Source: a virus (lineage: Duplodnaviria; Heunggongvirae; Uroviricota; Caudoviricetes). From it: a DNA stretch of 17,117 bases. The stretch lies in IMG/VR virus record IMGVR_UViG_2548876945_000002; one strand, 5' to 3'. Of this stretch, positions 3,614 to 16,731 are shown in pieces; the stretch's first letter is position 1; every line of letters begins with the position of its first letter. The notes beneath the pieces are model-generated. The model made no database searches, was not told the origin of the DNA, and saw nothing but the letters and a program-made list of their open reading frames with translations. A program made the position numbers and the translations under genes.

Positions 3614-4338
3614 TAAGCAGCCTCCCCTGTTACTTTCAGCATTCCGTTATCGAGCAGCTTTCTGGTCAGCCACTGTTGACCACGCCCGGTGATTTTTGTG
3701 GTGAACGATATCTGTATTCCGTGATTTGTGTTGACCGCTGTTTCTTTCACTGTGAAATAGCCGCGCTCCATATATTCCTGCATTGGCACATTGCGCCGGG
3801 AACCTGAAGCAATAAGGATTTTGTGATCGCGCATCCACGCAAACAGTTTGTTTGGACCAATTCCAACAACCTTTGCAAAGTTTCCAATCAAAATTCCGCT
3901 GGCCTCGCCAACGCGATCGGCAAACTCAACTTTAGGTGCGGCAATTGCGAGCTGGTTTTCCAGTTGCATTTTCTGCTCAGCAAGATCAGCAGCAAGGCGC
4001 AACGCTTCCGGTAGCGTTTTGGGGATATTAACCGCAGCTTCTTCAAGCTCTCGCCAACGGTCAACAAGACGAGCGGTGAATTCCGGCGACAATTGGGCGA
4101 CGACAATAATGCTGTCTCGCTTTCCTTGTTCGCCCTCGAAGACGTAGAAATCACGCTTCCCGGTAATAACACCTAAATCATTGATTATGTTAGTGTGCTG
4201 CAATGCAGGAGGCTTGATAACGCCACGTTTCACCAATCTATCTATGGATACTTTTACATTGCTATGGCGGCTTTCTACCAACTCAGCGATTTCAATGCTG
4301 GTCATTTTGATGGCATTGCCATTTATTAACTCATTCAT
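3613..4338 (-). CDS. Rha/antirepressor-family protein (N-terminal Rha-like, C-terminal ANT/KilA-C-like), 241 aa
   Basis: N-terminal segment TSIEIAELVESRHSNVKVSIDRLVKRG looks like the phage Rha regulatory domain; the C-terminal half resembles antirepressor ANT domains. Domain calls are from memory of the families. Confidence 0.6.
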   Translation of the reverse strand: MNELINGNAIKMTSIEIAELVESRHSNVKVSIDRLVKRGVIKPPALQHTNIINDLGVITGKRDFYVFEGEQGKRDSIIVVAQLSPEFTARLVDRWRELEEAAVNIPKTLPEALRLAADLAEQKMQLENQLAIAAPKVEFADRVGEASGILIGNFAKVVGIGPNKLFAWMRDHKILIASGSRRNVPMQEYMERGYFTVKETAVNTNHGIQISFTTKITGRGQQWLTRKLLDNGMLKVTGEAA

Positions 4339-4501
4339 CGTCTTCTTCCTCGTACATTGAGCTATTCGGATCGCTCATCAGCTCTGCGCAGCAATCGGAG
4401 CACACGTGAACTTCCAGCATATGCAGCTTCTGACCGCAATTAGCGCACGTTAAAGCCCGCTCGACGCTTTGTTGTTCGTAACTTCGATTTGGGTCAATCA
4501 C
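4331..4501 (-). CDS. ninF: NinF, about 56 aa with GTG start (ORF-track start at 4543 is the alternative)
   Basis: Core [47 protein letters not shown] matches lambda NinF. GTG at 4501..4499 overlaps the ninE stop as GTGA, which I take as the more likely start. Confidence 0.65.
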
Positions 4502-4680
4502 CTTGTTTTCCTCGCACGATGTCTTAGCCACCGGATATCCCACAGATGAGCCGCGTAGTTGAAGGTTTTTACGTCAGATTCTTTTGGGATTAGCTTGCGT
4601 TTATTTCTGGAACGCTTCGTTGGAAGGTATTTGCAGTTTTCGCAGATGATGTCGGTGATACTTCGTCGCTGTCGTCTCAT
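4498..4680 (-). CDS. ninE: NinE, 60 aa
   Basis: From the internal ATG at 4680..4678 the translation [60 protein letters not shown] matches lambda NinE. ATGA overlap with the methyltransferase stop. Confidence 0.8.
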
Positions 4681-5204
4681 GCCGCCCTCCTGACGCCCTG
4701 CCCGATCGCCATCAATGCCGCTTTGGATACGGTAGTAAACATCCGTCGAGGACTGATGAACGGTCGCCAAATCAGCAGCATGGAGCCTTTGCTGTTTCCC
4801 TTCTTCTCCAGCCCTGTCGATGGTTCGATAAAATTAATCCGTCCATCAGTGATAATGCGAACTTCGTCAACACTCTCCAGAGCCTTGCTGAACCATCCGA
4901 CTGACATATCCTCTGGCACAAGCATAACTACCGTCTGTCGCTGTTGTATGCACTGCTCAGCGGCTTTTTCCACCCACGGCCTGATATTGCTGTGCGGTGG
5001 GTTATTCCAGATTGCACCGTGGCTTACCCACTCAGAATTGAGCGCGTCGTCGGCCTCAGTTAGCCAGTGAGCACACAGAGCATTTTTGTCGCTCGCTGCC
5101 GAATCCAGCCAGAATCCAAACTCAATATCCAGTGCATCAAAAAGCCAAAGCGGCGTTTGCCAGCAGTCCTTGTCGTGTGCTGGCGTATTTGATTTGATAG
5201 TCAT
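4677..5204 (-). CDS. Phage-type DNA N6-adenine methyltransferase (Dam family), about 175 aa
   Basis: Translation [25 protein letters not shown]...[16 protein letters not shown] carries an NPP(H/Y)-type motif typical of N6-adenine methyltransferases. Preferred start is the ATG at 5204..5202, which overlaps the HNH stop as ATGA; the ORF-track start is 5222. Confidence 0.7.
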
Positions 5205-5803
5205 GCAGCCCGATCTCCCCATCTCGCTTTCATTGTTTCATTTGCAAATCGCCAGAATCTTCCTTTGTGATATGAGCTTTCGCCATTACAGCAACGACTA
5301 ATTGACGAACTATCAAATCCTTCTCTGACAGCATCCATAGCTGCTTCATAATAAACCTCCTCCCCAGTTTTCATGTCAGTAGAAATAACAGCTTTACTGG
5401 CAGGATGATCACCACTAAATTTACCTAGCGATATAGGTATTCTTCCATTTTGTTTATATCCGTGCTTTGAGTTTTCAGAATGTGATACCCATTCAAGGTT
5501 TTCAGCCCTATTGTCATCTCTTTGCCCATTTTTGTGATTAACTACCAAGCCATCACAGAACCCTGTACAGAATGCTTTCGCAACTATCCTGTGGGCGCTG
5601 TATTTCTTACCGTATACCTTTATTTGAAGATATCCTGTCGACTTGCACTTGAATGGTTTTACGCTAGTGCCATTAATTATTTTCTTATATGGCCTCTGTC
5701 TAGTTGATGTTACTGTAATTTCCCTCGTAATAGACCTGAAATTTCCTTTATTGCTAACCTGATAAAATGGAATTCCTTCGATATCTACCCAAACCTCAAT
5801 CAT
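5201..5803 (-). CDS. HNH homing-type endonuclease (NUMOD4-like N-terminus, HNH core, C-terminal DNA-binding module), 200 aa
   Basis: N-terminal WVDIEGIPFYQVSNKGNFRS, HNH core NHKNGQRDDNRAENLEWVSHSENSKHG, C-terminal SISRCCNGESSYHKGRFWRFA. The region is AT-rich relative to its flanks. A GGAGG Shine-Dalgarno lies inside the ninB 3' end. The last codons encode KARWGDRAA (see findings). Confidence 0.8.
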   Translation of the reverse strand: MIEVWVDIEGIPFYQVSNKGNFRSITREITVTSTRQRPYKKIINGTSVKPFKCKSTGYLQIKVYGKKYSAHRIVAKAFCTGFCDGLVVNHKNGQRDDNRAENLEWVSHSENSKHGYKQNGRIPISLGKFSGDHPASKAVISTDMKTGEEVYYEAAMDAVREGFDSSSISRCCNGESSYHKGRFWRFANETMKARWGDRAA

Positions 5804-6212
5804 AATTCCTCCATTCGCTAAGATGAATTGAGTTCATGGCACAATATGCTTCTATGTAGTCCATTATTTCGGATATTTTTTTTACAGAGAGAGTCGCCGT
5901 ACTCTCTCTGATGTTTATTAGCTCACCTTCTAACCCTGATATAATCTCAGGGTGCTGGTTGGTTGCAATCTGCCAACCAGAAACGAATAACCCCTTCCAA
6001 AACTCAATATTTCTTGCTTTTCCATGATATGTAGCCTTCTTACTTATTTCAGATAGCATCGCGTGAAGGCGTGCATTTTGCCGAATGCTGCGGTTGCGTT
6101 CCTGAATGGTTACTACGATTGGTTTGGTTGGGTCTGGAAGGATTTGCTGGATAGCTTGAATGGCGTTCTGCTGATGTGCTGGAGATCGAATTTCAAAGGT
6201 TAGTTTTTTCAT
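5796..6212 (-). CDS. ninB: NinB (Orf-family recombination mediator), about 138 aa
   Basis: From ATG at 6212..6210: MKKLTFEIRSPAHQQNAIQAIQQILPDPTKPIVVTIQERNRS is nearly identical to the lambda NinB N-terminus. The rest is divergent but alignable with lambda NinB. Confidence 0.85.
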   Translation of the reverse strand: MKKLTFEIRSPAHQQNAIQAIQQILPDPTKPIVVTIQERNRSIRQNARLHAMLSEISKKATYHGKARNIEFWKGLFVSGWQIATNQHPEIISGLEGELINIRESTATLSVKKISEIMDYIEAYCAMNSIHLSEWRNYD

Positions 6213-6230
6213 GACTTCCCTCTCCCCCAA

Positions 6231-6260
6231 ATAAAAAGGCCTGCGATTACCAGCAGGCCT
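6231..6260 (-). terminator. Intrinsic terminator between the primase-helicase gene and ninB (tR2-like position)
   Basis: Perfect 8-bp inverted repeat AGGCCTGC / GCAGGCCT with an 8-nt loop (6237..6260), followed on the minus strand by TTTTTAT (6236..6231). Confidence 0.7.
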
Positions 6261-6289
6261 GTTATTAGCTCAGTGATGTAGATGGTCAT

Positions 6290-8170
6290 TTAATACTCCG
6301 TCACGTTTTCCTGTCGCCACGCCTCGTCATATTCCGATTTCGGCATATTGGCGATGTAGCTATATGGCGATCCTGATTCAAGTTGCAGGAACTGGTGCGA
6401 TTGCTCATCAAGGAACAACGGGACACCACCTTCCCAACCTTCGCCGTTACGTTGTTTTTCAAGCATCAAAACAGATGCCGGAGATGCCAGTAGCTGTTCG
6501 TCCTTCTCTGACATCTTTTCACCACTCTGAACTCTCTGTAACGCTCTCTCGCGAGCCTTGTTACGCCAGATGATGAAAAGATTGTCTGTCAGGTCTGTTA
6601 TCGCTCCAGAGCCTTTTACGTCCATTTTCCCGGTTGGTTTTTCTTCGCTGTCACCTTTTCGCGAGTGAGTAACGAGAATGACGTGGGAGTTTGTTTTGTT
6701 TTTGAAATCGCAAATCGAGTCAACAAACGCCTTCTGCCCGTTATAGTCATCGTCGCCTATGCCACATTTCATCAGGCTGTCGATGATGAATAACTGGATG
6801 CCGTATCGGCGGCGAGCGTAGTCGAATATTTCGATCAGCCTGTCGGCTTTCGCCGTTCCGGTCAGGCCAAACACCCAAAGTCTTTCGTCATAAAATTTAA
6901 ATGCAGAGTCAATTTCCAGCACTGGCGGCATCTTGCAGCACGTCGCCTGACGGGTAAGTCGCTTAAGGAGAATGCCTGGCTTCAGCTCAAGTGACGCGAT
7001 GCACGTCTTCACACCCTGACGCATTGCCTCAAGTGCCATATGCCCGACAACCTCCGTTTTTCCGTGACCGTTCACACCATTGACCAGCGTCAACTCGGCC
7101 TCACGGAACTGGAATTTATCTGCCAGAGATTCCCATGGTGGATTAAACAGATACTGCTGCTTGCCGTAGAAAGCGTTGATTGTGTCCTGGTAAAACTCTC
7201 GCGCGCTGTAGAGTTCTTCAGGATCGAAGTAGGATGCCGTGCCGATGTACTGCCAGATTTCATCCTCGGTAACACCGTTCATCAGGCATTCGTTGATGTC
7301 TTTGTACGGCAGAGTAACAAGACGGCAACGATGTTCACCGAGTCGGCTTGCGATTTCCCTTGCGGCTTCACGACCAACATCATCAACATCCATCGAGATG
7401 AATATTTCCTCAAACCTGTCGAGGTTGTGATACTCAAACTCAATCCACTGTTGCTTAGCGCCTTTCCCGCCACCAAACGGCACGGATAACGCCGAGATGC
7501 CGTATTGCGCATAGCTCATACAATCAATTTCGCCTTCGCAAAGTACAACCGCCCTCACGCCAGCGTCCAGAGCCTGCCATCCGAACAGACAAGGTTCGCA
7601 ATCACCTTCTGCCATAATGACTTTCTTCCCGTCCGGGCGCTCAGTGCTGATTCGCTTGACCTGCAACAACTCACCATCGCGTTTGTACGGAAGCACCAGA
7701 GCATCCAGTTCTCGTTCTCCATTCCACACCTTTCCGCTGACAACCTCGTAGCGCTTTACGACTTCTGGCGATATGCCACGCGATTGCAGGTACTCAAGAT
7801 GGGATTCTGTTCTGGTAACGTAGCGGGCGATTTTCTTGCGATCAGGTCTGGAGAATTTCTTCTCACGTTTGGCATCGAAATGGTGATCGTCATCCTTGAT
7901 ACCGAGAAATGCTTTCGCTTCCTGCATAGCCTGATGCAGGTTAATTCCACGACATGCCATCCACAAATCAAGCATGTCACCGCCGTCTCCCTCAGCGAAA
8001 TCAGCCCATTTTTTCTTGCCGCTAAGGTTGACCTTAAGGCTGTTTCCCTTGTCACCGTTGACGTTACCGGCAACCCACTCATGCCCCTCTTTCTTGCCGT
8101 TTGGCAACAGGTGCGGAGCCACCCTGTCAACCTGCGCCCAAAGCAGGTTGCTAAGTTCACTTGGCCTCAT
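6290..8170 (-). CDS. Replicative DNA primase-helicase fusion (TOPRIM primase domain plus DnaB/RecA-fold helicase domain), 626 aa
   Basis: Central TOPRIM-like segment (VVLCEGEIDCMSYAQYGISALSVPFGGG) and C-terminal Walker A (LVNGVNGHGKTE) and Walker B-like (LFIIDSL) motifs. It occupies the position of lambda P. ATG start confirmed at 8170..8168. Confidence 0.8.
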   Translation of the reverse strand: MRPSELSNLLWAQVDRVAPHLLPNGKKEGHEWVAGNVNGDKGNSLKVNLSGKKKWADFAEGDGGDMLDLWMACRGINLHQAMQEAKAFLGIKDDDHHFDAKREKKFSRPDRKKIARYVTRTESHLEYLQSRGISPEVVKRYEVVSGKVWNGERELDALVLPYKRDGELLQVKRISTERPDGKKVIMAEGDCEPCLFGWQALDAGVRAVVLCEGEIDCMSYAQYGISALSVPFGGGKGAKQQWIEFEYHNLDRFEEIFISMDVDDVGREAAREIASRLGEHRCRLVTLPYKDINECLMNGVTEDEIWQYIGTASYFDPEELYSAREFYQDTINAFYGKQQYLFNPPWESLADKFQFREAELTLVNGVNGHGKTEVVGHMALEAMRQGVKTCIASLELKPGILLKRLTRQATCCKMPPVLEIDSAFKFYDERLWVFGLTGTAKADRLIEIFDYARRRYGIQLFIIDSLMKCGIGDDDYNGQKAFVDSICDFKNKTNSHVILVTHSRKGDSEEKPTGKMDVKGSGAITDLTDNLFIIWRNKARERALQRVQSGEKMSEKDEQLLASPASVLMLEKQRNGEGWEGGVPLFLDEQSHQFLQLESGSPYSYIANMPKSEYDEAWRQENVTEY

Positions 8171-9879: not shown

Positions 9880-9965
9880 AGGAATATCCTTTTTCGTACT
9901 TTCAGTACGTATTATGGTTGAACTGAAAGTTTTTGCAAGTGCTTTAGTATCGTACTCATGGTTCA
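9880..9965. promoter_or_regulatory. Right operator/promoter region (OR, pR, pRM) between cro and cI
   Basis: Perfect palindrome CGTACT-ttc-AGTACG at 9895-9909; related inverted element GAACTGAAAGTT at 9920-9931; third related site ATCGTACTCATGGTTC overlapping the cI start. Candidate pR on minus: TTGCAA (9939..9934), 16-nt spacer, CATAAT (9917..9912). Candidate pRM -10 TAGTAT at 9945-9950, 7 nt before the cI ATG. Confidence 0.55.
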
Positions 9966-10665
9966 GAATGAAAAAGTGCGCAAAGAATTCGCCCAGCGGC
10001 TAGCGCAAGCCTGTAAAGAAGCTGGTCTTGATGAACATGGTAGGGGAATGGCTATAGCCCGTGCCCTTTCTCTTTCGTCCAAAGGCGTTAGCAAATGGTT
10101 TAATGCTGAGTCTTTACCGCGTCAGGAAAAAATGAATGCGCTTGCGAAATTTCTAAACGTTGATGTTGTTTGGCTTCAGCACGGCACTTCGTTAAATGGA
10201 GCGAATGATGAAGATACTCTTTCATTTGTTGGCAAATTAAAAAAAGGGTTAGTGCGCGTGGTTGGTGAGGCAATTCTTGGTGTTGATGGTGCCATCGAGA
10301 TGACCGAAGAGCGCGATGGGTGGCTCAAAATTTATAGCGATGATCCAGATGCCTTTGGTCTTCGTGTGAAAGGAGACAGCATGTGGCCCAGAATAAAATC
10401 AGGAGAATATGTACTCATTGAGCCTAACACCAAAGTATTCCCGGGTGATGAGGTGTTTGTCAGAACCGTTGAAGGACACAACATGATTAAGGTTCTTGGC
10501 TATGACAGAGATGGAGAATACCAATTTACAAGCATTAACCAGGACCACAGGCCAATAACGTTGCCTTATCATCAAGTAGCAAAGGTGGAGTATGTGGCTG
10601 GTATTCTGAAGCAATCTCGCCATCTGGATGACATCGAGGCAAGGGAGTGGCTGAAAAGTTCGTGA
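9958..10665 (+). CDS. cI: CI-type repressor (N-terminal HTH, C-terminal LexA-like S24 autopeptidase domain), 235 aa
   Basis: N-terminal HTH (GMAIARALSLSSKGVSKW) and C-terminal S24 motifs (KGDSMWP). ATG at 9958 with no Shine-Dalgarno and a -10 hexamer only 7 nt upstream, suggesting a leaderless transcript as for lambda cI. Confidence 0.85.
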   Translation: MVQNEKVRKEFAQRLAQACKEAGLDEHGRGMAIARALSLSSKGVSKWFNAESLPRQEKMNALAKFLNVDVVWLQHGTSLNGANDEDTLSFVGKLKKGLVRVVGEAILGVDGAIEMTEERDGWLKIYSDDPDAFGLRVKGDSMWPRIKSGEYVLIEPNTKVFPGDEVFVRTVEGHNMIKVLGYDRDGEYQFTSINQDHRPITLPYHQVAKVEYVAGILKQSRHLDDIEAREWLKSS

Positions 10666-11949: not shown

Positions 11950-12333
11950 ATGACACGCAGAACTCAGTTCAAAGGCAATTCACGTTCTCGTCGTCGTGAG
12001 CGTTTAAAGGCAAAGGCATTAGCTAACGGCGTACTGGCCCGCGAAGAAGCAATAAGTTCAGAAGTATTACACCGCCCTACTCTAAGCAGAGCGCAGATTC
12101 AGGCTAAAGGTACTCACGAAACGCCTGAGCGCATAGAAGACGCTAAGCCAATTAAGTTCATGGCACAGGACGTGATCTGGCAACAGAAAGAATACAGACG
12201 CAATCTGGAGAGAGCGGCCATTGTGTACGCGAATGAGTTTGGGCATAGGCAACCAGAAACTGGTGTATGTCTTCCAAATGTAGCTCTTTACGCGGCAGGC
12301 TACCGTAAATCCAAACAACTGACAGCAAGATGA
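11950..12333 (+). CDS. N: N-type transcription antiterminator (P22 gp24-like), 127 aa
   Basis: N-terminal arginine-rich motif GNSRSRRRERLKAKA. C-terminus LPNVALYAAGYRKSKQLTAR closely matches the P22 N C-terminus (LPGVALYAAGHRKSKQITAR as recalled). AGGAGG 6 nt upstream of the ATG. First gene after pL and nutL. Confidence 0.8.
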   Translation: MTRRTQFKGNSRSRRRERLKAKALANGVLAREEAISSEVLHRPTLSRAQIQAKGTHETPERIEDAKPIKFMAQDVIWQQKEYRRNLERAAIVYANEFGHRQPETGVCLPNVALYAAGYRKSKQLTAR

Positions 12334-12525: not shown

Positions 12526-13383
12526 ATGCCAGGATTTACAAGTAAATTCATACCAAGAAGAGAATTCAAGCATAATCCAGAAAGACTAAATGTTATTTCT
12601 TCCGGTGGTGGGACTCAAAGTAACGCAATAATCTGCTTAGTACATGCTGGCGTTCTTCCAAAGCCTGACATTATCGTTATGTCAGATACAGAACGTGAGG
12701 CAAGTAATGTATTTGAATATCAGAAAAAATATATAGCTCCTATTTGTGAAGATATGGGTGTTGATTACCTGATTGTTCCTAAAAGTAGATTTGCTACCTA
12801 CGACATTGATGGGCCTGATCCAGACGTTCCTCTACCTGGATATTTCACAGAATACGAGGGAAGGGATTCAAAAGGAATGTGCGCTGGAAAGCAACCAGCA
12901 TTTTGTTCTATAAAGTGGAAAACTGAAGTTATTCAGAGATTTTTAAATGAAAGATATGGAGAGAAGTATCTCACAGCAAGAGGAGTGGATAGTTGGATGG
13001 GGATAAGCATTGAAGAGGCTACACGAAGAGCGAAATACCCAACTGGCAAGTGGCAGAGGCGCTATCCACTTATTGAAATGCTAATGACTAAACAGATGGC
13101 AATTCAATGTGTCGAGGATTATGGTCTTCCTACACCACCTGCCTCGCTTTGCTGGATGTGCCCTAACAGAGATGATGATCTGTGGCTTTATATGAAAAAT
13201 AACGTCCCATCTGATTTTGAAAGAGCATGTCAGCATGAAAAAGAGATACAAATGAAGTGGCCTCATTTGTGGCTTACTAAATATGGTGTTCCACTATCTG
13301 AGGCACCACTAACACCTAGTGGTGGTAAAAATGCACAAATGGATCTTATACAATTCTGCGATTCTGGACTGTGCTTCGTTTAA
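12526..13383 (+). CDS. PAPS-reductase-like / PP-loop superfamily protein (DndC-like or NinC-like fold), 285 aa
   Basis: N-terminal VISSGGGTQSNAI resembles a degenerate SGGxDS PP-loop; C-terminal CWMCPNRDDD is a CxxC element. The gene is clearly AT-rich relative to N and recT. Superfamily call is by motif only. Confidence 0.55.
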   Translation: MPGFTSKFIPRREFKHNPERLNVISSGGGTQSNAIICLVHAGVLPKPDIIVMSDTEREASNVFEYQKKYIAPICEDMGVDYLIVPKSRFATYDIDGPDPDVPLPGYFTEYEGRDSKGMCAGKQPAFCSIKWKTEVIQRFLNERYGEKYLTARGVDSWMGISIEEATRRAKYPTGKWQRRYPLIEMLMTKQMAIQCVEDYGLPTPPASLCWMCPNRDDDLWLYMKNNVPSDFERACQHEKEIQMKWPHLWLTKYGVPLSEAPLTPSGGKNAQMDLIQFCDSGLCFV

Positions 13384-13519
13384 GCCGCATAACCCATTAG
13401 AGCAGAAATATTCGCTAATTAAAATTGAAAGAATAATTTCATTTATAAACCAGTTCCCTGAATCTTACCTGTTTTGCGATGGTGATCGGGAAATAGCAGA
13501 GATTAAGTTTGAGGAATGA
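13331..13519 (+). CDS. Possible small ORF (62 aa) overlapping the 3' end of the PAPS-reductase-like gene
   Basis: MHKWILYNSAILDCASFKPHNPLEQKYSLIKIERIISFINQFPESYLFCDGDREIAEIKFEE from an internal ATG. No clear Shine-Dalgarno; very AT-rich. Ends 1 nt before a terminator hairpin. May be spurious. Confidence 0.25.
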   Translation: MHKWILYNSAILDCASFKPHNPLEQKYSLIKIERIISFINQFPESYLFCDGDREIAEIKFEE

Positions 13520-13520
13520 A

Positions 13521-13545
13521 GCCGAATATTCGGCCTTTATTTTTG
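13521..13545 (+). terminator. Intrinsic terminator (tL-type) after the PAPS-reductase-like region
   Basis: Perfect 14-bp palindrome GCCGAATATTCGGC followed by CTTTATTTTTG. Confidence 0.6.
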
Positions 13546-13663
13546 GCATAAACAACAGAATAAACACTGCACTGTGTATTCATTCCAACGAGTGAATACA
13601 CGGAGCAATGTCGCTCGTAACCAAACAGGAGCCGACTTGTTCTGATTATTGGAAATCTTCTTT

Positions 13664-13690
13664 GCCCTCCAATGTGAGGGCAATTTTTTT
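13664..13690 (+). terminator. Intrinsic terminator just upstream of the coiled-coil gene
   Basis: GCCCTC-CAATGT-GAGGGC hairpin followed by AATTTTTTT. It falls inside the ORF-track N-terminal extension of the next gene, so that gene more likely starts at 13703. Confidence 0.65.
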
Positions 13691-13702
13691 GACGGAGGAT
13701 AT

Positions 13703-14671
13703 ATGAGTGAAGTAACAGATTTAGTTGTTATTGAAAAAGCAAATGCAATGACTGTATTTCAGTCTGCCGACCAGATTGAAGAAATTCTCCAAAAGGTTGA
13801 ACGTGAAGTTATGTCCTTTGTGCCTGATATCACAACGGCAAAGGGCAGAAAGGAGATCGCTTCTCTGGCGTATAAAGTTGCGCAGACGAAAACATATCTC
13901 GATGGTCTTGGCAAAGACCTTGTTGCTGAACTGAAGGAAATTCCAAAGCTAATTGATGCCAACCGCAAAACAGTGCGCGATCGCCTTGATGAACTGAAAG
14001 CCAAGGCGCGCCAGCCTCTTACTGATTATGAGGAAGAACAGGCGCGGATTAAAGCCGAAGAAGAAGCTAAGGCAGCAGCTGAAGCTCTCGCAAAGCAAAT
14101 TGAGTCTGACCATGAAATAGCGATTTTGATGGATCGCGAATTTGACCGCCAAAGAGAAGAGGCAAGACTCAAAGCGGAGCAGGAAAAGCGAGAGCATGAA
14201 GAGCGCTTAAAAAGAGAAGCTGAAGAGAAAGCCAGAGCTGAAGCCGAAGCAAAGGCAAAAGCCGAAATTGAAGCAGCAGCAAGGCGAGAAGCAGAAGCTA
14301 AGGCAGCAGCGGAACGTGCAGAGCGTGAACGTATTGAAGCCGAGCAACGAGCACAGCGCGAAGCAAAAGAGGCAGCAGAACGAGCTGAAAGAGAAAAGCA
14401 GGCAGCGATTGAAGCAGAACGCAGAAAAGCACAGGAGGAGGCTGAACGAATCCGTCGCGAGGCTGAAGCAAAAGAGCAAGCCAGAATAGCAGAAGAAAAA
14501 AGAATCAAGGACGAAGAAGAGCGTAGAGCAAAGGATAAAGCTCACCGGAAAGAAGTAAATAACAAAATACTTGCTGACCTTATCAAGGTTGGAGCATCAG
14601 AAGATGTTGCTAAAAATATCATAACAGCCATCGTAAAAGGCGAAGTATTCGCAACAAAAATAACCTACTAA
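13703..14671 (+). CDS. Hypothetical protein with a long charged ER/K-rich alpha-helical (coiled-coil or single-helix) domain, about 322 aa
   Basis: Start ATG at 13703 with GGAGG 4 nt upstream. About 120-residue N-terminal domain, about 170 residues of EAEAKAKAE / REAEEKARAE-type repeats, then a short C-terminal segment. TolA-like in composition only. Confidence 0.7.
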   Translation: MSEVTDLVVIEKANAMTVFQSADQIEEILQKVEREVMSFVPDITTAKGRKEIASLAYKVAQTKTYLDGLGKDLVAELKEIPKLIDANRKTVRDRLDELKAKARQPLTDYEEEQARIKAEEEAKAAAEALAKQIESDHEIAILMDREFDRQREEARLKAEQEKREHEERLKREAEEKARAEAEAKAKAEIEAAARREAEAKAAAERAERERIEAEQRAQREAKEAAERAEREKQAAIEAERRKAQEEAERIRREAEAKEQARIAEEKRIKDEEERRAKDKAHRKEVNNKILADLIKVGASEDVAKNIITAIVKGEVFATKITY

Positions 14672-14695
14672 TAAAACCAACATAAGGAACCACCC

Positions 14696-14827
14696 ATGAT
14701 TTACGCAATCGCGGGAGGCGCTCGCATGGGTGCCTTCCAATTAAATGAATCTTTACTTGAACGAATCACCCGTAAATTACGTGACGGATGGAAAAGAGTT
14801 GAGGTCTTATTATGCGCAATGAAATAG
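14696..14827 (+). CDS. Small ORF (43 aa)
   Basis: MIYAIAGGARMGAFQLNESLLERITRKLRDGWKRVEVLLCAMK. AAGGAA 6 nt upstream of the ATG. First in a chain of overlapping small ORFs. Confidence 0.3.
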   Translation: MIYAIAGGARMGAFQLNESLLERITRKLRDGWKRVEVLLCAMK

Positions 14828-14964
14828 CCATCAATCACCAGATGCTTCGTGCTGCACAAAACAAAGCAGTAATAGCCAGATTTATTGGTGATTCAAAAAT
14901 GTGGCTTGAAGCAAATAAAGCGATGAAATCAGCTATCAACCTTCCGTGGTATCGCAGGAAATGA
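14812..14964 (+). CDS. Small ORF (50 aa)
   Basis: MRNEIAINHQMLRAAQNKAVIARFIGDSKMWLEANKAMKSAINLPWYRRK. GAGG 7 nt upstream. Its stop overlaps the next ATG as ATGA. Confidence 0.3.
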   Translation: MRNEIAINHQMLRAAQNKAVIARFIGDSKMWLEANKAMKSAINLPWYRRK

Positions 14965-15068
14965 GTTTTACAGATAACTGGTCAGACGAAGAATTCATTC
15001 GTCAGATGAACAAAATGCTCAATCAGCACAAAGAACAGGAGAAAGATGATGATTCTGACTCTGAATGA
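14961..15068 (+). CDS. Small acidic ORF (35 aa)
   Basis: MSFTDNWSDEEFIRQMNKMLNQHKEQEKDDDSDSE. Overlaps the start of the following 103-aa gene. Confidence 0.25.
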   Translation: MSFTDNWSDEEFIRQMNKMLNQHKEQEKDDDSDSE

Positions 15069-15357
15069 TAAGCGTGAAATATCGCAAATTATCGCAAGTT
15101 TTACTGATGAAGATTACGAACGAATCAACAGTGAAGTTGATCGCCTCTGCAAACGTTGCGACCCAATAAGCGAAATGCTTCGCTCATATAAACCAGATGA
15201 ACATACTAAGGATGCTATCGACTGGCTGGAAGATGATGATTGTAACTATCAGGAAAAAGCCGCTGAATGGTTCTGGGATGCAATAACCGAAAGAGTTAAG
15301 GCTGAATATGCCTTCGCAATATTCAAACGCAGACACATTTTTGGAGAAGCTGCATGA
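15046..15357 (+). CDS. Hypothetical protein (103 aa), translationally coupled to recT
   Basis: MMILTLNDKREISQIIASFTDEDYERINSEVDRLCKRCDPISEMLRSYKPDE.... AGGAGA upstream. Its stop overlaps the recT ATG as ATGA. Not recognised. Confidence 0.55.
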   Translation: MMILTLNDKREISQIIASFTDEDYERINSEVDRLCKRCDPISEMLRSYKPDEHTKDAIDWLEDDDCNYQEKAAEWFWDAITERVKAEYAFAIFKRRHIFGEAA

Positions 15358-16265
15358 GCAATATCGTTGAATTCGTTAAACAGCAAGAGCAGTTATTCTG
15401 CGGAGCATTGACTGAACAGACGGTGACATGGGCTAAGGAAAGCCAGTTTGCAATTCAGTATTTCCAGAAAAACGATTACCTGGCTAAAACGGCACTGGCA
15501 AATCCAACCAGCGCACAGAACGCCATCATCAATGTTGCGGCGATCGGCATCACCTTAAACCCGGCCAGCAAACTGGCTTATCTGGTTCCGCGCGACGGCA
15601 TGGTTTGCCTTGATATCAGTTATATGGGATTGCTCCATATTGCAATGGAGTCTGGTGTTATCTCATGGGGTCAGGCAAAACTTGTTCATGCTAACGATAC
15701 CTATGAGTCAAACGGGCTTGATAAAGCACCAACCCATAAATACAACGCCTTCGGTGATCGTGGTGATATCGTTGGCGTTTACTGCACAGTTAAGACGCCA
15801 GCAGGTGATTATCTAACGGAAGAGATGAGTCTGGCTGAAATTGAGGCTGTAAGGAAAACAAGCAAGGCAGCATTCAGCGATAAAGGACCATGGGTAAATC
15901 ACTGGAATGAGATGGCGCGAAAGACGGTCGTAAAGCGTGCAAGCAAGTATTGGCCTAAGGCATCACGTCTTGATAGTGCTATTCACGTACTAAACGAAGA
16001 AGAAGGTGTGTGGACTGAACCAGTTATGCCGCACAAATCAGAGGAAGATATCCGCGAAGATGAACGGAAACTCCAGCAGGAAATAATGGATAAAGTACAA
16101 CTTCTTTGCGATGAAATGGCTCAGGCAGAAAACATGGATGATTTGAAGCGATATTTTGCAGAAGCATATCGCCTAACATCTGGAATGAAATTACAGCAGA
16201 ACGTACAAGCCATTTACATAGAATGCAAAGCGAAACTGGAGGTTGCCAGTGAGCAAACTATATGA
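15354..16265 (+). CDS. recT: RecT-family single-strand annealing recombinase, 303 aa
   Basis: Segment GPWVNHWNEMARKTVVKRASKYWP matches E. coli RecT (GPWVTHWEEMAKKTAIRRLFKYLP as recalled), and the N-terminal half is alignable as well. Confidence 0.85.
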   Translation: MSNIVEFVKQQEQLFCGALTEQTVTWAKESQFAIQYFQKNDYLAKTALANPTSAQNAIINVAAIGITLNPASKLAYLVPRDGMVCLDISYMGLLHIAMESGVISWGQAKLVHANDTYESNGLDKAPTHKYNAFGDRGDIVGVYCTVKTPAGDYLTEEMSLAEIEAVRKTSKAAFSDKGPWVNHWNEMARKTVVKRASKYWPKASRLDSAIHVLNEEEGVWTEPVMPHKSEEDIREDERKLQQEIMDKVQLLCDEMAQAENMDDLKRYFAEAYRLTSGMKLQQNVQAIYIECKAKLEVASEQTI

Positions 16266-16731
16266 AATAGCCAATGAATACGCAAAATTGATGGATTCAG
16301 ATTTAGATCCAGAGATGATTGCTGACACAATAGAAGGCATGGAAGGAGAATTTACCGATAAAATAGAGCAACTTCTCGCCATTATTAAAAATGAATCTGG
16401 TTATGCTGAACGCCTCAAGGAAGAGGCAAAGTCGCTGAATGAGCGAGCCGCAGTAATTCAAAATAAGATTGACAGCATCAAATCATATATAGCGTCATCG
16501 CTTGAAATGGTTGGCAAGAAAAAGATTCGAGCAGGTATTCACCAGGTAACAATCCGCAAACCGTCAGAAATTGTAGAAATAATCGACTCAAGCGCCCTTC
16601 CTCCTGAATACGTTGAGTTTGAAACGACAATTAAAGCCAACAAACTGGCAATCAAACACCAACTAAAAGCAGGAATAAATATCCCAGGCGCTCAACTCAA
16701 GGTTGGGAAACCTTCACTTCTTATCAAATAA
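16249..16731 (+). CDS. Hypothetical protein, possibly siphovirus Gp157-family, about 160 aa
   Basis: Immediately downstream of and overlapping the recT 3' end. GTG at 16249 has GGAGG 6 nt upstream (ORF-track start is TTG at 16243). Coiled-coil N-terminus and KP-containing C-terminus resemble Gp157-family proteins often found next to recombinases. Family call is tentative. Confidence 0.45.
   Translation: MSKLYEIANEYAKLMDSDLDPEMIADTIEGMEGEFTDKIEQLLAIIKNESGYAERLKEEAKSLNERAAVIQNKIDSIKSYIASSLEMVGKKKIRAGIHQVTIRKPSEIVEIIDSSALPPEYVEFETTIKANKLAIKHQLKAGINIPGAQLKVGKPSLLIK

What the first reader, a model, noticed from the sequence alone, without database searches (positions are those of the whole stretch)
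13703..14671. Early-left protein with a roughly 170-residue ER/K-rich helical spacer
The protein has a folded N-terminal domain followed by an extremely long run of Glu/Ala/Lys/Arg repeats typical of stable single alpha-helices or coiled coils. It sits directly behind an intrinsic terminator in the pL operon. Proteins like this in early operons are uncharacterised. The shape suggests a molecular ruler or tether, for example membrane or nucleoid associated, or a host-takeover factor. The repetitive DNA also creates long spurious antisense ORFs.
Basis: seen in the sequence. Interest (0 to 1): 0.5.

Follow-up and report, generated by a model that had tools for sequence, protein, structure and literature searches.

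The report
Rod-shaped Agt-family phage recombination accessory
This prophage gene encodes a long, charged, rod-like protein related to the little-studied phi80 protein Agt; its very large family sits next to phage DNA-recombination genes, so it is a known kind of gene whose mechanism is still unsolved.

Summary
ORF 13703-14671 (+) is a real 322-aa gene behind an intrinsic terminator in the pL operon. Residues 111-285 are 80% Glu/Arg/Lys/Ala. Residues 161-285 have a strong single-alpha-helix signature and no heptads.

The claim that it is uncharacterised is only partly right. The protein is collinear with phage phi80 Agt (51% identity, E 1e-64), which GenBank annotates as "anti-toxin for Gam / modifier of Gam". 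It is about 98% identical in DNA to Sf6 gene 33 and occurs in 530 of 5426 complete E. coli genomes.

The family is very large (5699 clusters at 50% identity) and matches no Pfam family. All members share three parts:
- an N-terminal cap;
- a helical spacer, median 190 aa;

The gene lies upstream of a phage single-strand annealing protein (SSAP) in 71 of 72 enterobacterial loci and 81 of 82 Pseudomonas/Shewanella loci (median gap 8 bp). The SSAP family varies. GamL is usually absent, and is absent from this window. Identical alleles pair with unrelated SSAPs.

My best explanation is a rod-shaped tether belonging to the recombination module that acts on a host factor or DNA ends, probably RecBCD/SbcCD handling. 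That mechanism is inferred, not shown. Membrane or nucleoid roles have no support.

The parts
13521..13544 (+). First terminator-like hairpin (GCCGAATATTCGGC followed by a T-rich tail) after the upstream PAPS-reductase-like gene
13662..13690 (+). Intrinsic terminator: 8-bp stem (5 GC pairs), 6-nt loop, T7 run. Equivalent to the element annotated tL2A in Sf6. Transcription of the gene therefore probably needs N antitermination from pL
   Evidence: No sigma-70-like promoter found in 13300-14800
13694..13699 (+). Shine-Dalgarno GGAGGA
13703..14671 (+). Agt-family CDS, 322 aa (stop codon included)
13703..14056 (+). Residues 1-118: conserved N-terminal module. Helices 12-20 and 22-38, the loop VPDxxTxKGR, then the start of the long helix. 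R49, K63 and K78 are invariant. P41, D42, T45, K47, G48, S54, T64, G70, D96 and P105 are nearly invariant
14105..14146 (+). Residues 135-148, the DHEIAILMDREFDR motif shared with phi80, Klebsiella, Vibrio and Iodobacter homologues. It lies just before the only low-confidence break in the rod (148-155) and is absent from the 245-aa natural deletion variant
14183..14557 (+). Residues 161-285: ER/K single-alpha-helix segment, about 19 nm if fully helical (0.15 nm per residue)
14543..14668 (+). Residues 281-322: conserved C-terminal mini-domain. Invariant His281, end of the long helix, short helix 300-311, then an extended tail ending ...KITY-COOH
14057..14083 (+). Direct repeat copy 1 (GAAGAAGAAGCTAAGGCAGCAGCTGAA)
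   Evidence: Together with copy 2 it accounts for the 77-codon deletion in the 245-aa variant P0016
14288..14314 (+). Direct repeat copy 2, 93% identical to copy 1 and 231 nt downstream of it
14026..14508 (-). Spurious antisense ORF (160 aa, Ser/Ala/Cys-rich), a by-product of the GAA/GCA-rich coding repeats. A second one lies at 14207-14545
14696..14964 (+). Downstream cIII (14696-14827) and the overlapping kil (14812-14964)
15046..16731 (+). Recombination module downstream: orf103 (15046-15357, phrog_3486, function unknown), RecT (15354-16265, PF03837), and Gp157/MuGam-type protein (16243-16731, PF05565)

Best explanation
**Shown**
- The gene encodes a member of the Agt family (prototype: phage phi80 Agt/Mog).
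- The protein is predicted to be an elongated rod. A small N-terminal helical cap and a roughly 42-residue C-terminal mini-domain are separated by a helix of about 250 residues. The distal 125 residues of that helix form an ER/K single alpha-helix.
- It is a delayed-early pL gene located behind a terminator.
- Across Proteobacterial phages the family is a constituent of the recombination (Rec) module, usually its first gene.
- It is independent of which SSAP or anti-RecBCD protein the module carries.

**Inferred**
- The two end modules bind separate partners and the ER/K helix holds them roughly 20-35 nm apart, acting as a tether or spacer.
- The partner(s) are host factors or DNA ends rather than the phage SSAP or Gam.
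- The most likely process is control of the host dsDNA-end nucleases (RecBCD/SbcCD) during phage recombination and replication. The protein would tune or complement the anti-RecBCD protein so that ends are protected without lethal loss of host break repair.
- In this window the cognate anti-RecBCD protein would be the MuGam-type Gp157, not GamL.
For: **Homology.** 51% identity to phi80 Agt over all 322 residues, E 1e-64. The phi80 GenBank record names agt 'anti-toxin for Gam; Mog (modifier of Gam)' and gamL 'toxic without Mog'. The HF4s record annotates the 98%-identical gene likewise. PMC5862497 confirms that phi80 lysogeny was reported to give recD/sbcCD phenotypes.

**Architecture.** AF2 models have pLDDT 83 and 88. 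The C-terminal domain and the terminal [IV]x[YF] are present in 106 of 135 diverse representatives. Spacer median is 190 aa, IQR 173-202, and the i/i+4 opposite-to-same charge ratio is 2796:547.

**Synteny in annotated phages.** phi80, Mulock, D3, phiLM21, PhiPLPE, TCUAN1, Shewanella 1/41 and Sf6.

**Synteny counts.**
- 71 of 72 enterobacterial loci have an SSAP within 4 kb downstream: ERF 30, Rad52/22 24, RecT 14, Sak4-like 3.
- 81 of 82 Pseudomonas/Shewanella loci have ERF or RecT directly downstream (median gap 8 bp), nearly always followed by an exonuclease gene. No known anti-RecBCD gene was detected in any of them.

**Allele sharing.**
- One identical C-domain allele is found 26 times with RecT-type and 17 times with ERF-type SSAPs.
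- Identical 322-aa proteins occur with ERF+Abc2, Rad52+Abc2 and RecT+Gp157 modules.

**Analogy.** In Firmicutes phages the slot upstream of erf or sak4 is filled by MuGam, DUF2483, DUF1351 or Gp157, which the authors say 'implies their analogous function' (PMC8093625).
Against: - No biochemical or structural partner is identified. Fold and sequence searches gave nothing beyond family members and generic coiled coils.
- The only functional datum comes from phi80 and concerns GamL. GamL is absent here and from 66 of 72 related enterobacterial loci.
- I could not read Rotman et al. 2012. Details of the Agt experiment rest on GenBank notes and my memory.
- PMC5862497 reports that the recD/sbcCD phenocopy of phi80 lysogens was not seen in MG1655.
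- In E. coli-type lambdoids cIII and kil lie between this gene and the Rec module, and everything in pL lies near the Rec module anyway.
- The sampled loci are not phylogenetically independent.
- Short natural variants argue against a strict length requirement.
- A recent survey of Rec modules in 325 lambdoid phages does not mention Agt in its main text.
Confidence: 0.45

Rival explanations
1. Dedicated antitoxin for a Gam-type RecBCD inhibitor. Agt binds the phage anti-RecBCD protein itself and tempers it, as proposed for phi80 GamL.
For: GenBank annotation of phi80 agt and gamL. In Klebsiella-type phages agt is followed 8 bp later by gamL. All six GamL-adjacent loci in that class carry one C-terminal allele type...DLIPCAKIHY.
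Against: GamL is present in only 6 of 72 enterobacterial loci and in none of 82 Pseudomonas/Shewanella loci. This window has no GamL or lambda Gam homologue. Identical Agt proteins occur with Abc2 and with Gp157 modules. The same C-terminal allele also occurs in two loci where no GamL was detected (L081, L089), and Mulock with GamL has a different allele. The linkage is explained by physical adjacency. hhalign finds no Agt-GamL similarity.
Confidence: 0.15
2. Adaptor that recruits the phage recombination machinery (SSAP or exonuclease) to a cellular structure such as the replisome or SSB. The C-terminal aromatic tail would act as a docking peptide.
For: Direct adjacency to the SSAP, probably with translational coupling: median gap 8 bp. 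The tail ends in a conserved [IV]x[YF]-COOH and is predicted to be extended. The ER/K spacer architecture fits this role.
Against: Neither end domain covaries with SSAP family. N-domain identity is 0.966 for same-SSAP pairs against 0.964 for different-SSAP pairs. C-domain identity is 0.948 against 0.941. Four unrelated SSAP families and modules without an exonuclease accompany near-identical Agt proteins. The tail lacks the acidic residues of SSB tips and does not fit a beta-clamp motif (my own knowledge, not tested).
Confidence: 0.15
3. Envelope, membrane or nucleoid tether, or a TolA-like protein or general host-takeover factor.
For: Many records call it 'TolA' or 'colicin import membrane protein'. 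TolA domain II is also a long Ala/Glu/Lys-rich helix.
Against: The TolA model TIGR02794 scores 9.2 bits against a cut-off of 59.45. I saw no hydrophobic segment or signal-peptide-like N-terminus in the sequence (by inspection output, no predictor run). The conserved context is the Rec module, not lysis or envelope genes.
Confidence: 0.04
4. Counter-defence protein or decoy that merely resides in the early operon and targets a host immune system triggered by recombination proteins.
For: Early-operon accessory genes are often anti-defence genes (general knowledge). The upstream neighbour is a PAPS-reductase/SspD-like protein.
Against: There is no PADLOC match, though that library does not cover anti-defence proteins. 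The family keeps a fixed position beside SSAPs over very large phylogenetic distances, across alpha-, beta- and gamma-proteobacterial phages. That is atypical for fast-turnover anti-defence cargo.
Confidence: 0.1

Closest known systems
Phage phi80 (Lula) Agt / Mog, PHI80_40, AFV29176.1
   Same: Same length (322 aa). 51% identity end to end, with the same N-cap, DHE(I/M)A(I/L)LM motif, ER/K helix and C-terminal domain. It is a pL-operon gene just upstream of the Rec module.
   Different: In phi80 it directly precedes gamL, whose toxicity it is annotated to relieve. Here cIII, kil and two small ORFs follow, the module is orf103-RecT-Gp157, and no GamL is present.
Shigella phage Sf6 gene 33, CUS-3, IME10 Orf53, mEp043/213/234, HK544, many Stx phages
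   Same: About 98% DNA identity. The protein is 100% identical to mEp043 over the unmasked 61% of its length. Same terminator and cIII-kil neighbours.
   Different: The Rec modules downstream differ, for example Sf6 has a Rad52/22-type SSAP, SSB and Abc2. All are annotated hypothetical, TolA or coiled-coil.
ER/K single alpha-helix (SAH) linkers, e.g. myosin VI/X, caldesmon, engineered ER/K linkers
   Same: The composition, the i/i+4 E-to-K/R pattern, the absence of a hydrophobic seam and the isolated high-confidence helix all match.
   Different: Those are eukaryotic lever-arm or linker segments and there is no homology, only a shared physical principle. Monomeric stability has not been measured here.
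DUF1351 (PF07083), DUF2483, Sipho_Gp157 (PF05565) and Mu Gam genes upstream of SSAPs in Firmicutes phages
   Same: They occupy the same genomic slot immediately upstream of erf, sak4 or recT, which PMC8093625 proposes implies analogous function.
   Different: No Pfam match in 101 family members. hhalign against the window's own Gp157 gives probability 0.2%. This window carries both an Agt-like gene and a Gp157 gene, so they are not simple substitutes.
TolA domain II
   Same: A long Ala/Glu/Lys-rich helix, which is the source of the widespread 'TolA' mis-annotation.
   Different: By inspection (no predictor run) there is no membrane anchor, and there is no match to TolA domain III. The HMM score is far below its cut-off.

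Membership tests
phi80 Agt (anti-Gam-toxicity / Mog) family | End-to-end sequence homology to phi80 Agt | tested here: met
   BLASTP gives 51% identity over 322 of 322 residues, E 1e-64. Also full-length match to PHROG 1376.
phi80 Agt (anti-Gam-toxicity / Mog) family | Tripartite architecture: N-cap, long charged helix, C-terminal mini-domain ending in an aromatic residue | tested here: met
phi80 Agt (anti-Gam-toxicity / Mog) family | Early-left operon gene upstream of the recombination module | tested here: met
   N at 11950-12333 and RecT at 15354-16265. Synteny statistics.
phi80 Agt (anti-Gam-toxicity / Mog) family | Adjacent cognate gamL gene | tested here: not met
   No GamL or lambda Gam homologue downstream in the window. 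GamL is present in only 6 of 72 related loci.
phi80 Agt (anti-Gam-toxicity / Mog) family | Relieves toxicity of a Gam-type RecBCD/SbcCD inhibitor | not testable with these tools
   Needs co-expression genetics. Known only from the phi80 annotation and Rotman et al. 2012, which I could not access.
ER/K single alpha-helix (SAH) | High E/K/R(/A) content with very few hydrophobic residues | tested here: met
   Residues 161-285 are 86% E/R/K/A and 6% hydrophobic.
ER/K single alpha-helix (SAH) | Excess of i/i+4 oppositely charged pairs and depletion of like-charged pairs | tested here: met
   49 against 23.3 +/- 3.6, and 3 against 22.4 +/- 3.8. Family-wide ratio 2796:547.
ER/K single alpha-helix (SAH) | No heptad hydrophobic seam, i.e. 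not a coiled coil | tested here: met
   a/d enrichment z = 1.1 for residues 161-285. The N-proximal part, 46-104, is modestly heptad-like (z = 2.9).
ER/K single alpha-helix (SAH) | Monomeric, thermally stable helix in solution | not testable with these tools
   Needs CD, SAXS or AUC measurements. AF2 predicts an isolated helix with pLDDT 88-94.
TolA (TIGR02794) | Model score above the curated cut-off, with membrane anchor and C-terminal domain III | tested here: not met
   9.2 bits against 59.45. By inspection of the sequence (no predictor run) there is no hydrophobic N-terminal anchor.
DUF1351 / Sipho_Gp157 / Mu Gam-like end-protection proteins | Pfam or profile match to PF07083, PF05565 or PF07352 | tested here: not met
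   No Pfam hit for the protein or for 101 relatives. hhalign against Gp157 gives probability 0.2%. A direct profile-profile test against DUF1351 could not be run.
DUF1351 / Sipho_Gp157 / Mu Gam-like end-protection proteins | Position immediately upstream of the SSAP gene | tested here: met
   Median gap of 8 bp to the SSAP in 81 of 82 Pseudomonas/Shewanella loci. The analogy is described in PMC8093625.

The most novel reading that the evidence does not exclude
The Agt family would be a general but overlooked component of SSAP recombination modules in Proteobacterial phages. It would be a roughly 30-nm rod, built around a single alpha-helix, that itself engages the host end-processing machinery (RecBCD and/or SbcCD) or DNA ends. 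In Pseudomonas D3-like phages, where no Gam, Abc2 or MuGam homologue was detected, it would be the module's only anti-nuclease or end-handling factor. In lambdoid phages it would moderate otherwise toxic anti-RecBCD proteins.
Probability: 0.25. Interest if true: 0.65.

Novelty: new member of a known kind. Interest (0 to 1): 0.45.

Why it matters
Phage Red/RecET-type modules are the basis of recombineering and a main driver of phage mosaicism.
- A family with more than 5000 sequence clusters heads these modules across alpha-, beta- and gamma-proteobacterial phages.
- That family matches no Pfam family, is routinely mislabelled 'TolA', and is not mentioned in the main text of a 2025 survey of lambdoid Rec modules.
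- If it modulates host RecBCD/SbcCD or DNA-end handling, it would explain how phages tolerate their own toxic nuclease inhibitors, and it could improve recombineering toolkits.
- It would also be a rare bacterial-virus example of an ER/K single-helix spacer with a conserved preferred length.

Tried and rejected
**Family and profile searches**
- Pfam on the protein, its two end domains, eight relatives and 101 family members gave nothing consistent.
- NCBIfam gave only sub-threshold compositional hits, including TolA.
- PADLOC gave none.

**Structure searches**
- PDB profile searches with the N- and C-domain alignments gave nothing significant. The best hits were the Rad50 coiled coil (E 0.032) and RuvA domain III (E 0.45).
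- The afdb50 library was unavailable.

**hhalign of the family profile**
- Against the window's Gp157, phi80 GamL and orf103: probabilities 0.2%, 0.1% and 1.0%.

**Domain fusions**
- Apparent fusions are artefacts: frameshifts, prophage deletions and one chimeric SusD contig.

- The word-index homologue searches returned mostly truncated proteins at contig ends, so they could not reveal other architectures for the C-domain.

**Literature**
- Rotman et al. 2012 is not held.
- No open-access paper discusses Agt.
- The Genome Research 2025 paper has no supplements held.

**Hypotheses rejected**
- A coiled-coil SMC/Rad50-like tether, because residues 161-285 lack heptads.
- A structural, scaffold or tape-measure protein, because of the early-operon position and the lack of any structural-family match.
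- A spurious low-complexity ORF, because the protein is conserved across thousands of clusters.
Full report

Yes. The + strand carries an ORF from ATG 13703 to the stop at 14669-14671. It is 322 aa and is preceded by GGAGGA at 13694-13699.

Immediately upstream is an 8-bp, GC-rich hairpin at 13662-13683 followed by seven T residues. A second terminator-like hairpin lies at 13521-13534. No sigma-70-like promoter was found between them and the start codon. Sf6 annotates the same hairpin as 'tL2A'.

The window has the layout of a lambdoid early-left operon:
- CI-like repressor at 9958-10665;
- N at 11950-12333;
- a PAPS-reductase-like gene at 12526-13383;
- this gene;
- cIII, kil, a 103-aa ORF, RecT and a Gp157 protein.

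Composition:
- Residues 111-285 are 80% Glu/Arg/Lys/Ala.
- Residues 161-285 are 86% E/R/K/A with only 6% hydrophobic residues.
- In 161-285 there are 49 oppositely charged i/i+4 pairs, against 23.3 +/- 3.6 in shuffles.
- There are 3 like-charged i/i+4 pairs, against 22.4 +/- 3.8.

Residues 161-285 show no heptad a/d enrichment (z = 1.1). This is the signature of an ER/K single alpha-helix, not a coiled coil.

At the DNA level the region is compositionally biased rather than recently duplicated.

**2. Predicted structure**

AlphaFold2 with a 45-sequence alignment gave mean pLDDT 83. The predicted elements are:
- helices 12-20 and 22-38;
- a loop at 39-45;
- one helix at 46-147;
- a low-confidence break at 148-155;
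- one helix at 156-295, with pLDDT 88-94 through the ER/K part;
- a short helix at 300-311;
- an extended tail at 312-322.

A second model of residues 1-160, built from 101 sequences, reached pLDDT 88 and agreed with the first.

The 'folded N-terminal domain' is therefore a small two-helix cap on the start of a rod of about 250 residues. Residues 46-104 are modestly heptad-like (z = 2.9). They probably pack against the cap or mediate oligomerisation.

**3. What is it?**

The DNA is about 98% identical to Sf6 gene 33, CUS-3, IME10 Orf53, HK544, mEp043/213/234 and many Stx phages, giving 331 phage records. It is present in 530 of 5426 complete E. coli genomes, labelled 'hypothetical', 'coiled-coil domain-containing' or 'TolA'.

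The decisive lead was the HF4s record, which calls the gene 'antitoxin protein; similar to phage phi80 Agt; Gam antitoxin'. The phi80 GenBank record annotates:
- agt (PHI80_40, also 322 aa) as 'anti-toxin for Gam; Mog (modifier of Gam)';
- the next gene, gamL, as 'host RecBCD/SbcCD enzymes inhibitor; toxic without Mog'.

The window protein and phi80 Agt align end to end at 51% identity, E 1e-64.

I could not obtain the primary paper, Rotman et al. 2012, J Bacteriol 194:6802. From memory, its abstract says the antidote agt 'apparently encod[es] a modifier protein' and that phi80 lysogens are recD and sbcCD phenocopies. PMC5862497 independently confirms that such phenotypes were reported. It adds that they were not reproduced in MG1655.

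**4. The family**

- An exhaustive profile search with the N-terminal module found 5699 cluster representatives at 50% identity with E <= 1e-3, of which 1136 had E <= 1e-30.
- Of the top 135 new representatives, 106 also carry the C-terminal domain and end in [IV]x[YF]-COOH. Their median length is 343.5 aa.
- The C-domain consensus is R-E-A-D-K-x-H-[RK]-x-x-I-N...G-x-V-P-x-V-x-I-x-Y, with an invariant His.
- The spacer between the N-module's PLTDWE motif and that His has median 190 aa, IQR 173-202 and range 100-257. Its i/i+4 opposite-to-same charge ratio is 2796:547.
- The ER/K spacer is therefore a conserved property with a preferred length but not a fixed one.
- Natural short forms exist. 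One is a 245-aa E. coli/Salmonella variant lacking 77 codons between the direct repeats at 14057-14083 and 14288-14314. Relatives of 221 and 262 aa also occur.
- Homologues with the same three parts occur in phages of Pseudomonas (D3), Vibrio, Klebsiella, Sinorhizobium, Iodobacter, Acinetobacter and Shewanella.
- No Pfam family matches the protein or any consistent subset of 101 relatives. Its PHROGs are all 'unknown function'.

**5. Genomic context**

In annotated phages the gene abuts the recombination module whatever its type:

| Phage | Gene order |
|---|---|
| phi80 | agt, gamL, recT, exo |
| Klebsiella phage Mulock | gene 041 (Agt-like), GamL, Bet, Exo |
| Pseudomonas phage D3 | CDS0058 (Agt-like), Erf, exonuclease |
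| Sinorhizobium phage phiLM21 | p010 (Agt-like), ERF, YqaJ exonuclease, NinB |
| Acinetobacter phage TCUAN1 | Agt-like gene, Bet |
| Shewanella phage 1/41 | S141_5 (Agt-like), exonuclease VIII, Bet |
| Iodobacter phage PhiPLPE | RecE, Bet, gp77 (Agt-like), RdgC |

I quantified this with ORFs from fetched IMG/VR loci, classified by phmmer against reference proteins whose families I checked in Pfam.

Enterobacterial loci with at least 2.5 kb downstream:
- 71 of 72 have an SSAP on the same strand within 4 kb, at a median of 520 bp.
- SSAP types: ERF 30, Rad52/22 24, RecT 14, Sak4-like 3.
- Anti-RecBCD types: Abc2 42, GamL 6, lambda Gam 3, Gp157 3, none detected 18.

Pseudomonas/Shewanella loci:
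- 81 of 82 have the SSAP directly downstream, at a median gap of 8 bp.
- SSAP types: RecT 43, ERF 38, nearly always followed by an exonuclease gene.
- No recognisable anti-RecBCD gene was found in any of them.

Identical alleles combine with different modules:
- One C-domain allele occurs 26 times with RecT-type and 17 times with ERF-type SSAPs.
- Mean N-domain identity is 0.966 for same-SSAP pairs against 0.964 for different-SSAP pairs. C-domain identity is 0.948 against 0.941.
- Identical 322-aa proteins occur with ERF+Abc2, Rad52+Abc2 and RecT+Gp157 modules.

Caveats. The loci are not phylogenetically independent. In lambdoid phages, proximity within pL is partly a given. In E. coli-type phages cIII-kil intervenes, whereas in Klebsiella-type phages kil lies upstream and Agt touches the Rec genes.

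**6. How it most likely works**

Shown: membership of the Agt family, the rod-like three-part architecture with a single-helix spacer, delayed-early expression context, membership of the Rec module, and independence from any particular SSAP or anti-RecBCD type.

Inferred:
- Near-identical proteins serve unrelated SSAPs and inhibitors, so the binding partners of the two conserved end modules are most probably host proteins or DNA ends.
- The only genetic datum links the family to the consequences of RecBCD/SbcCD inhibition.
- D3-like modules contain nothing else that could deal with host nucleases.
- From these points I favour a tether or spacer that modulates host dsDNA-end processing during phage recombination. 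In this window it would work alongside the MuGam-type Gp157.

I put about 0.45 on this composite statement. Confidence is high for family and module membership and low for the molecular target.

Rivals, with their evidence listed in the report sections:
- a dedicated antitoxin that binds Gam-type proteins (0.15);
- an adaptor linking SSAP or exonuclease to the replisome or SSB through the C-terminal aromatic tail (0.15);
- a counter-defence protein (0.10);
- an envelope, TolA-like or nucleoid tether (0.04).

**7. Comparison with known systems**

It is a member of the phi80 Agt family by sequence, architecture and position. It fails one contextual feature, the adjacent gamL, and the defining activity could not be tested.

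Its spacer has the physical signature of eukaryotic ER/K single-helix linkers, without homology to them.

It occupies the same slot as DUF1351, DUF2483, Gp157 and Mu Gam in Firmicutes phages, for which analogous function has been proposed (PMC8093625). No homology to those families was detected. This window has both an Agt-like gene and a Gp157 gene.

The 'TolA' label is a compositional artefact.

A 2025 survey of Rec modules in 325 lambdoid phages lists SSAP, nuclease, SSB and four anti-RecBCD types, plus Abc1, Arf, RecE-2, ParA/B and RdgC. Agt does not appear in its main text.

**8. Verdict**

The feature is real, but it is not a new kind of thing. It is an already-sequenced, widespread gene and an orthologue of a named but barely characterised phi80 protein.

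What this analysis adds:
- evidence that the family belongs to the Rec module across Proteobacterial phages;
- evidence that its function cannot be Gam-specific;
- evidence that its spacer is of the ER/K single-helix type rather than a coiled coil, with a conserved preferred length;
- identification of a conserved C-terminal domain.

Interest is moderate (0.45). It is a good experimental target with an unsolved mechanism, not a surprise.

Noticed in passing
window 12526-13383 (+): A 285-aa PAPS-reductase-like protein lies in the pL operon just upstream. It matches phrog_424 at E 1e-34 and the PADLOC SspD model at E 3e-7, with no Pfam hit. A DNA-phosphorothioation-related fold in an early phage operon could indicate a modification or anti-restriction function.
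   Followed up: partly
window 16243-16731 (+): A Sipho_Gp157 protein (PF05565, E 1e-37; PHROG label 'Mu Gam-like end protection') overlaps the end of RecT. With RecT and no exonuclease in the window, this resembles the HK140-type Rec module (SAP-4 plus MuGam) described in PMC12315714.
   Followed up: partly
window 15046-15357 (+): A 103-aa ORF (phrog_3486, unknown function, no Pfam) precedes RecT here and in all four related RecT loci where it was detected by phmmer (L015, L017, L032, L054). It may be an uncharacterised Rec-module partner of this RecT type.
   Followed up: partly
window 14057-14083 and 14288-14314: These 27-nt direct repeats are 93% identical and 231 nt apart. They explain a naturally circulating 245-aa in-frame deletion allele (P0016, seen on 14 contigs in E. 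coli and Salmonella) that lacks the DHEIAILMDREFDR motif and 77 residues of the rod.
   Followed up: yes
database hits P0001-P0258: A large share of database entries for this gene are N- or C-terminal fragments at contig ends. Others are frameshifted into the Lys/Gln-rich +2 frame (for example P0003, 27 members). The GAA/GCA-rich coding repeat evidently breaks short-read assemblies and gene calls.
   Followed up: partly
L009 (Leptolyngbya phage Lbo-JY16, PP438408.1) 4001-6418: By eye, this phage's Agt-like protein appears roughly 85-90% identical in its N-terminal domain to that of Pseudomonas D3-like phages. It has the same arrangement of Agt-like gene, ERF, then a further downstream gene whose family was not checked. 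The cyanobacterial host assignment looks doubtful and may reflect a Pseudomonas phage from a non-axenic culture.
   Followed up: no
window 14696-14964 (+): cIII (PF02061) and kil (PF06301) overlap by 16 nt. A further 40-aa ORF (14946-15068, phrog_17766) overlaps the end of kil. This is a tightly packed run of small early genes between Agt and the Rec module.
   Followed up: no
L072-L091 (Klebsiella-type relatives): All six loci in which gamL directly follows agt share the C-terminal allele type ...DLIPCAKIHY. The allele also occurs in two loci where no GamL was detected. This is probably hitch-hiking of adjacent DNA, but it could hint at a C-domain-GamL interaction.
   Followed up: partly
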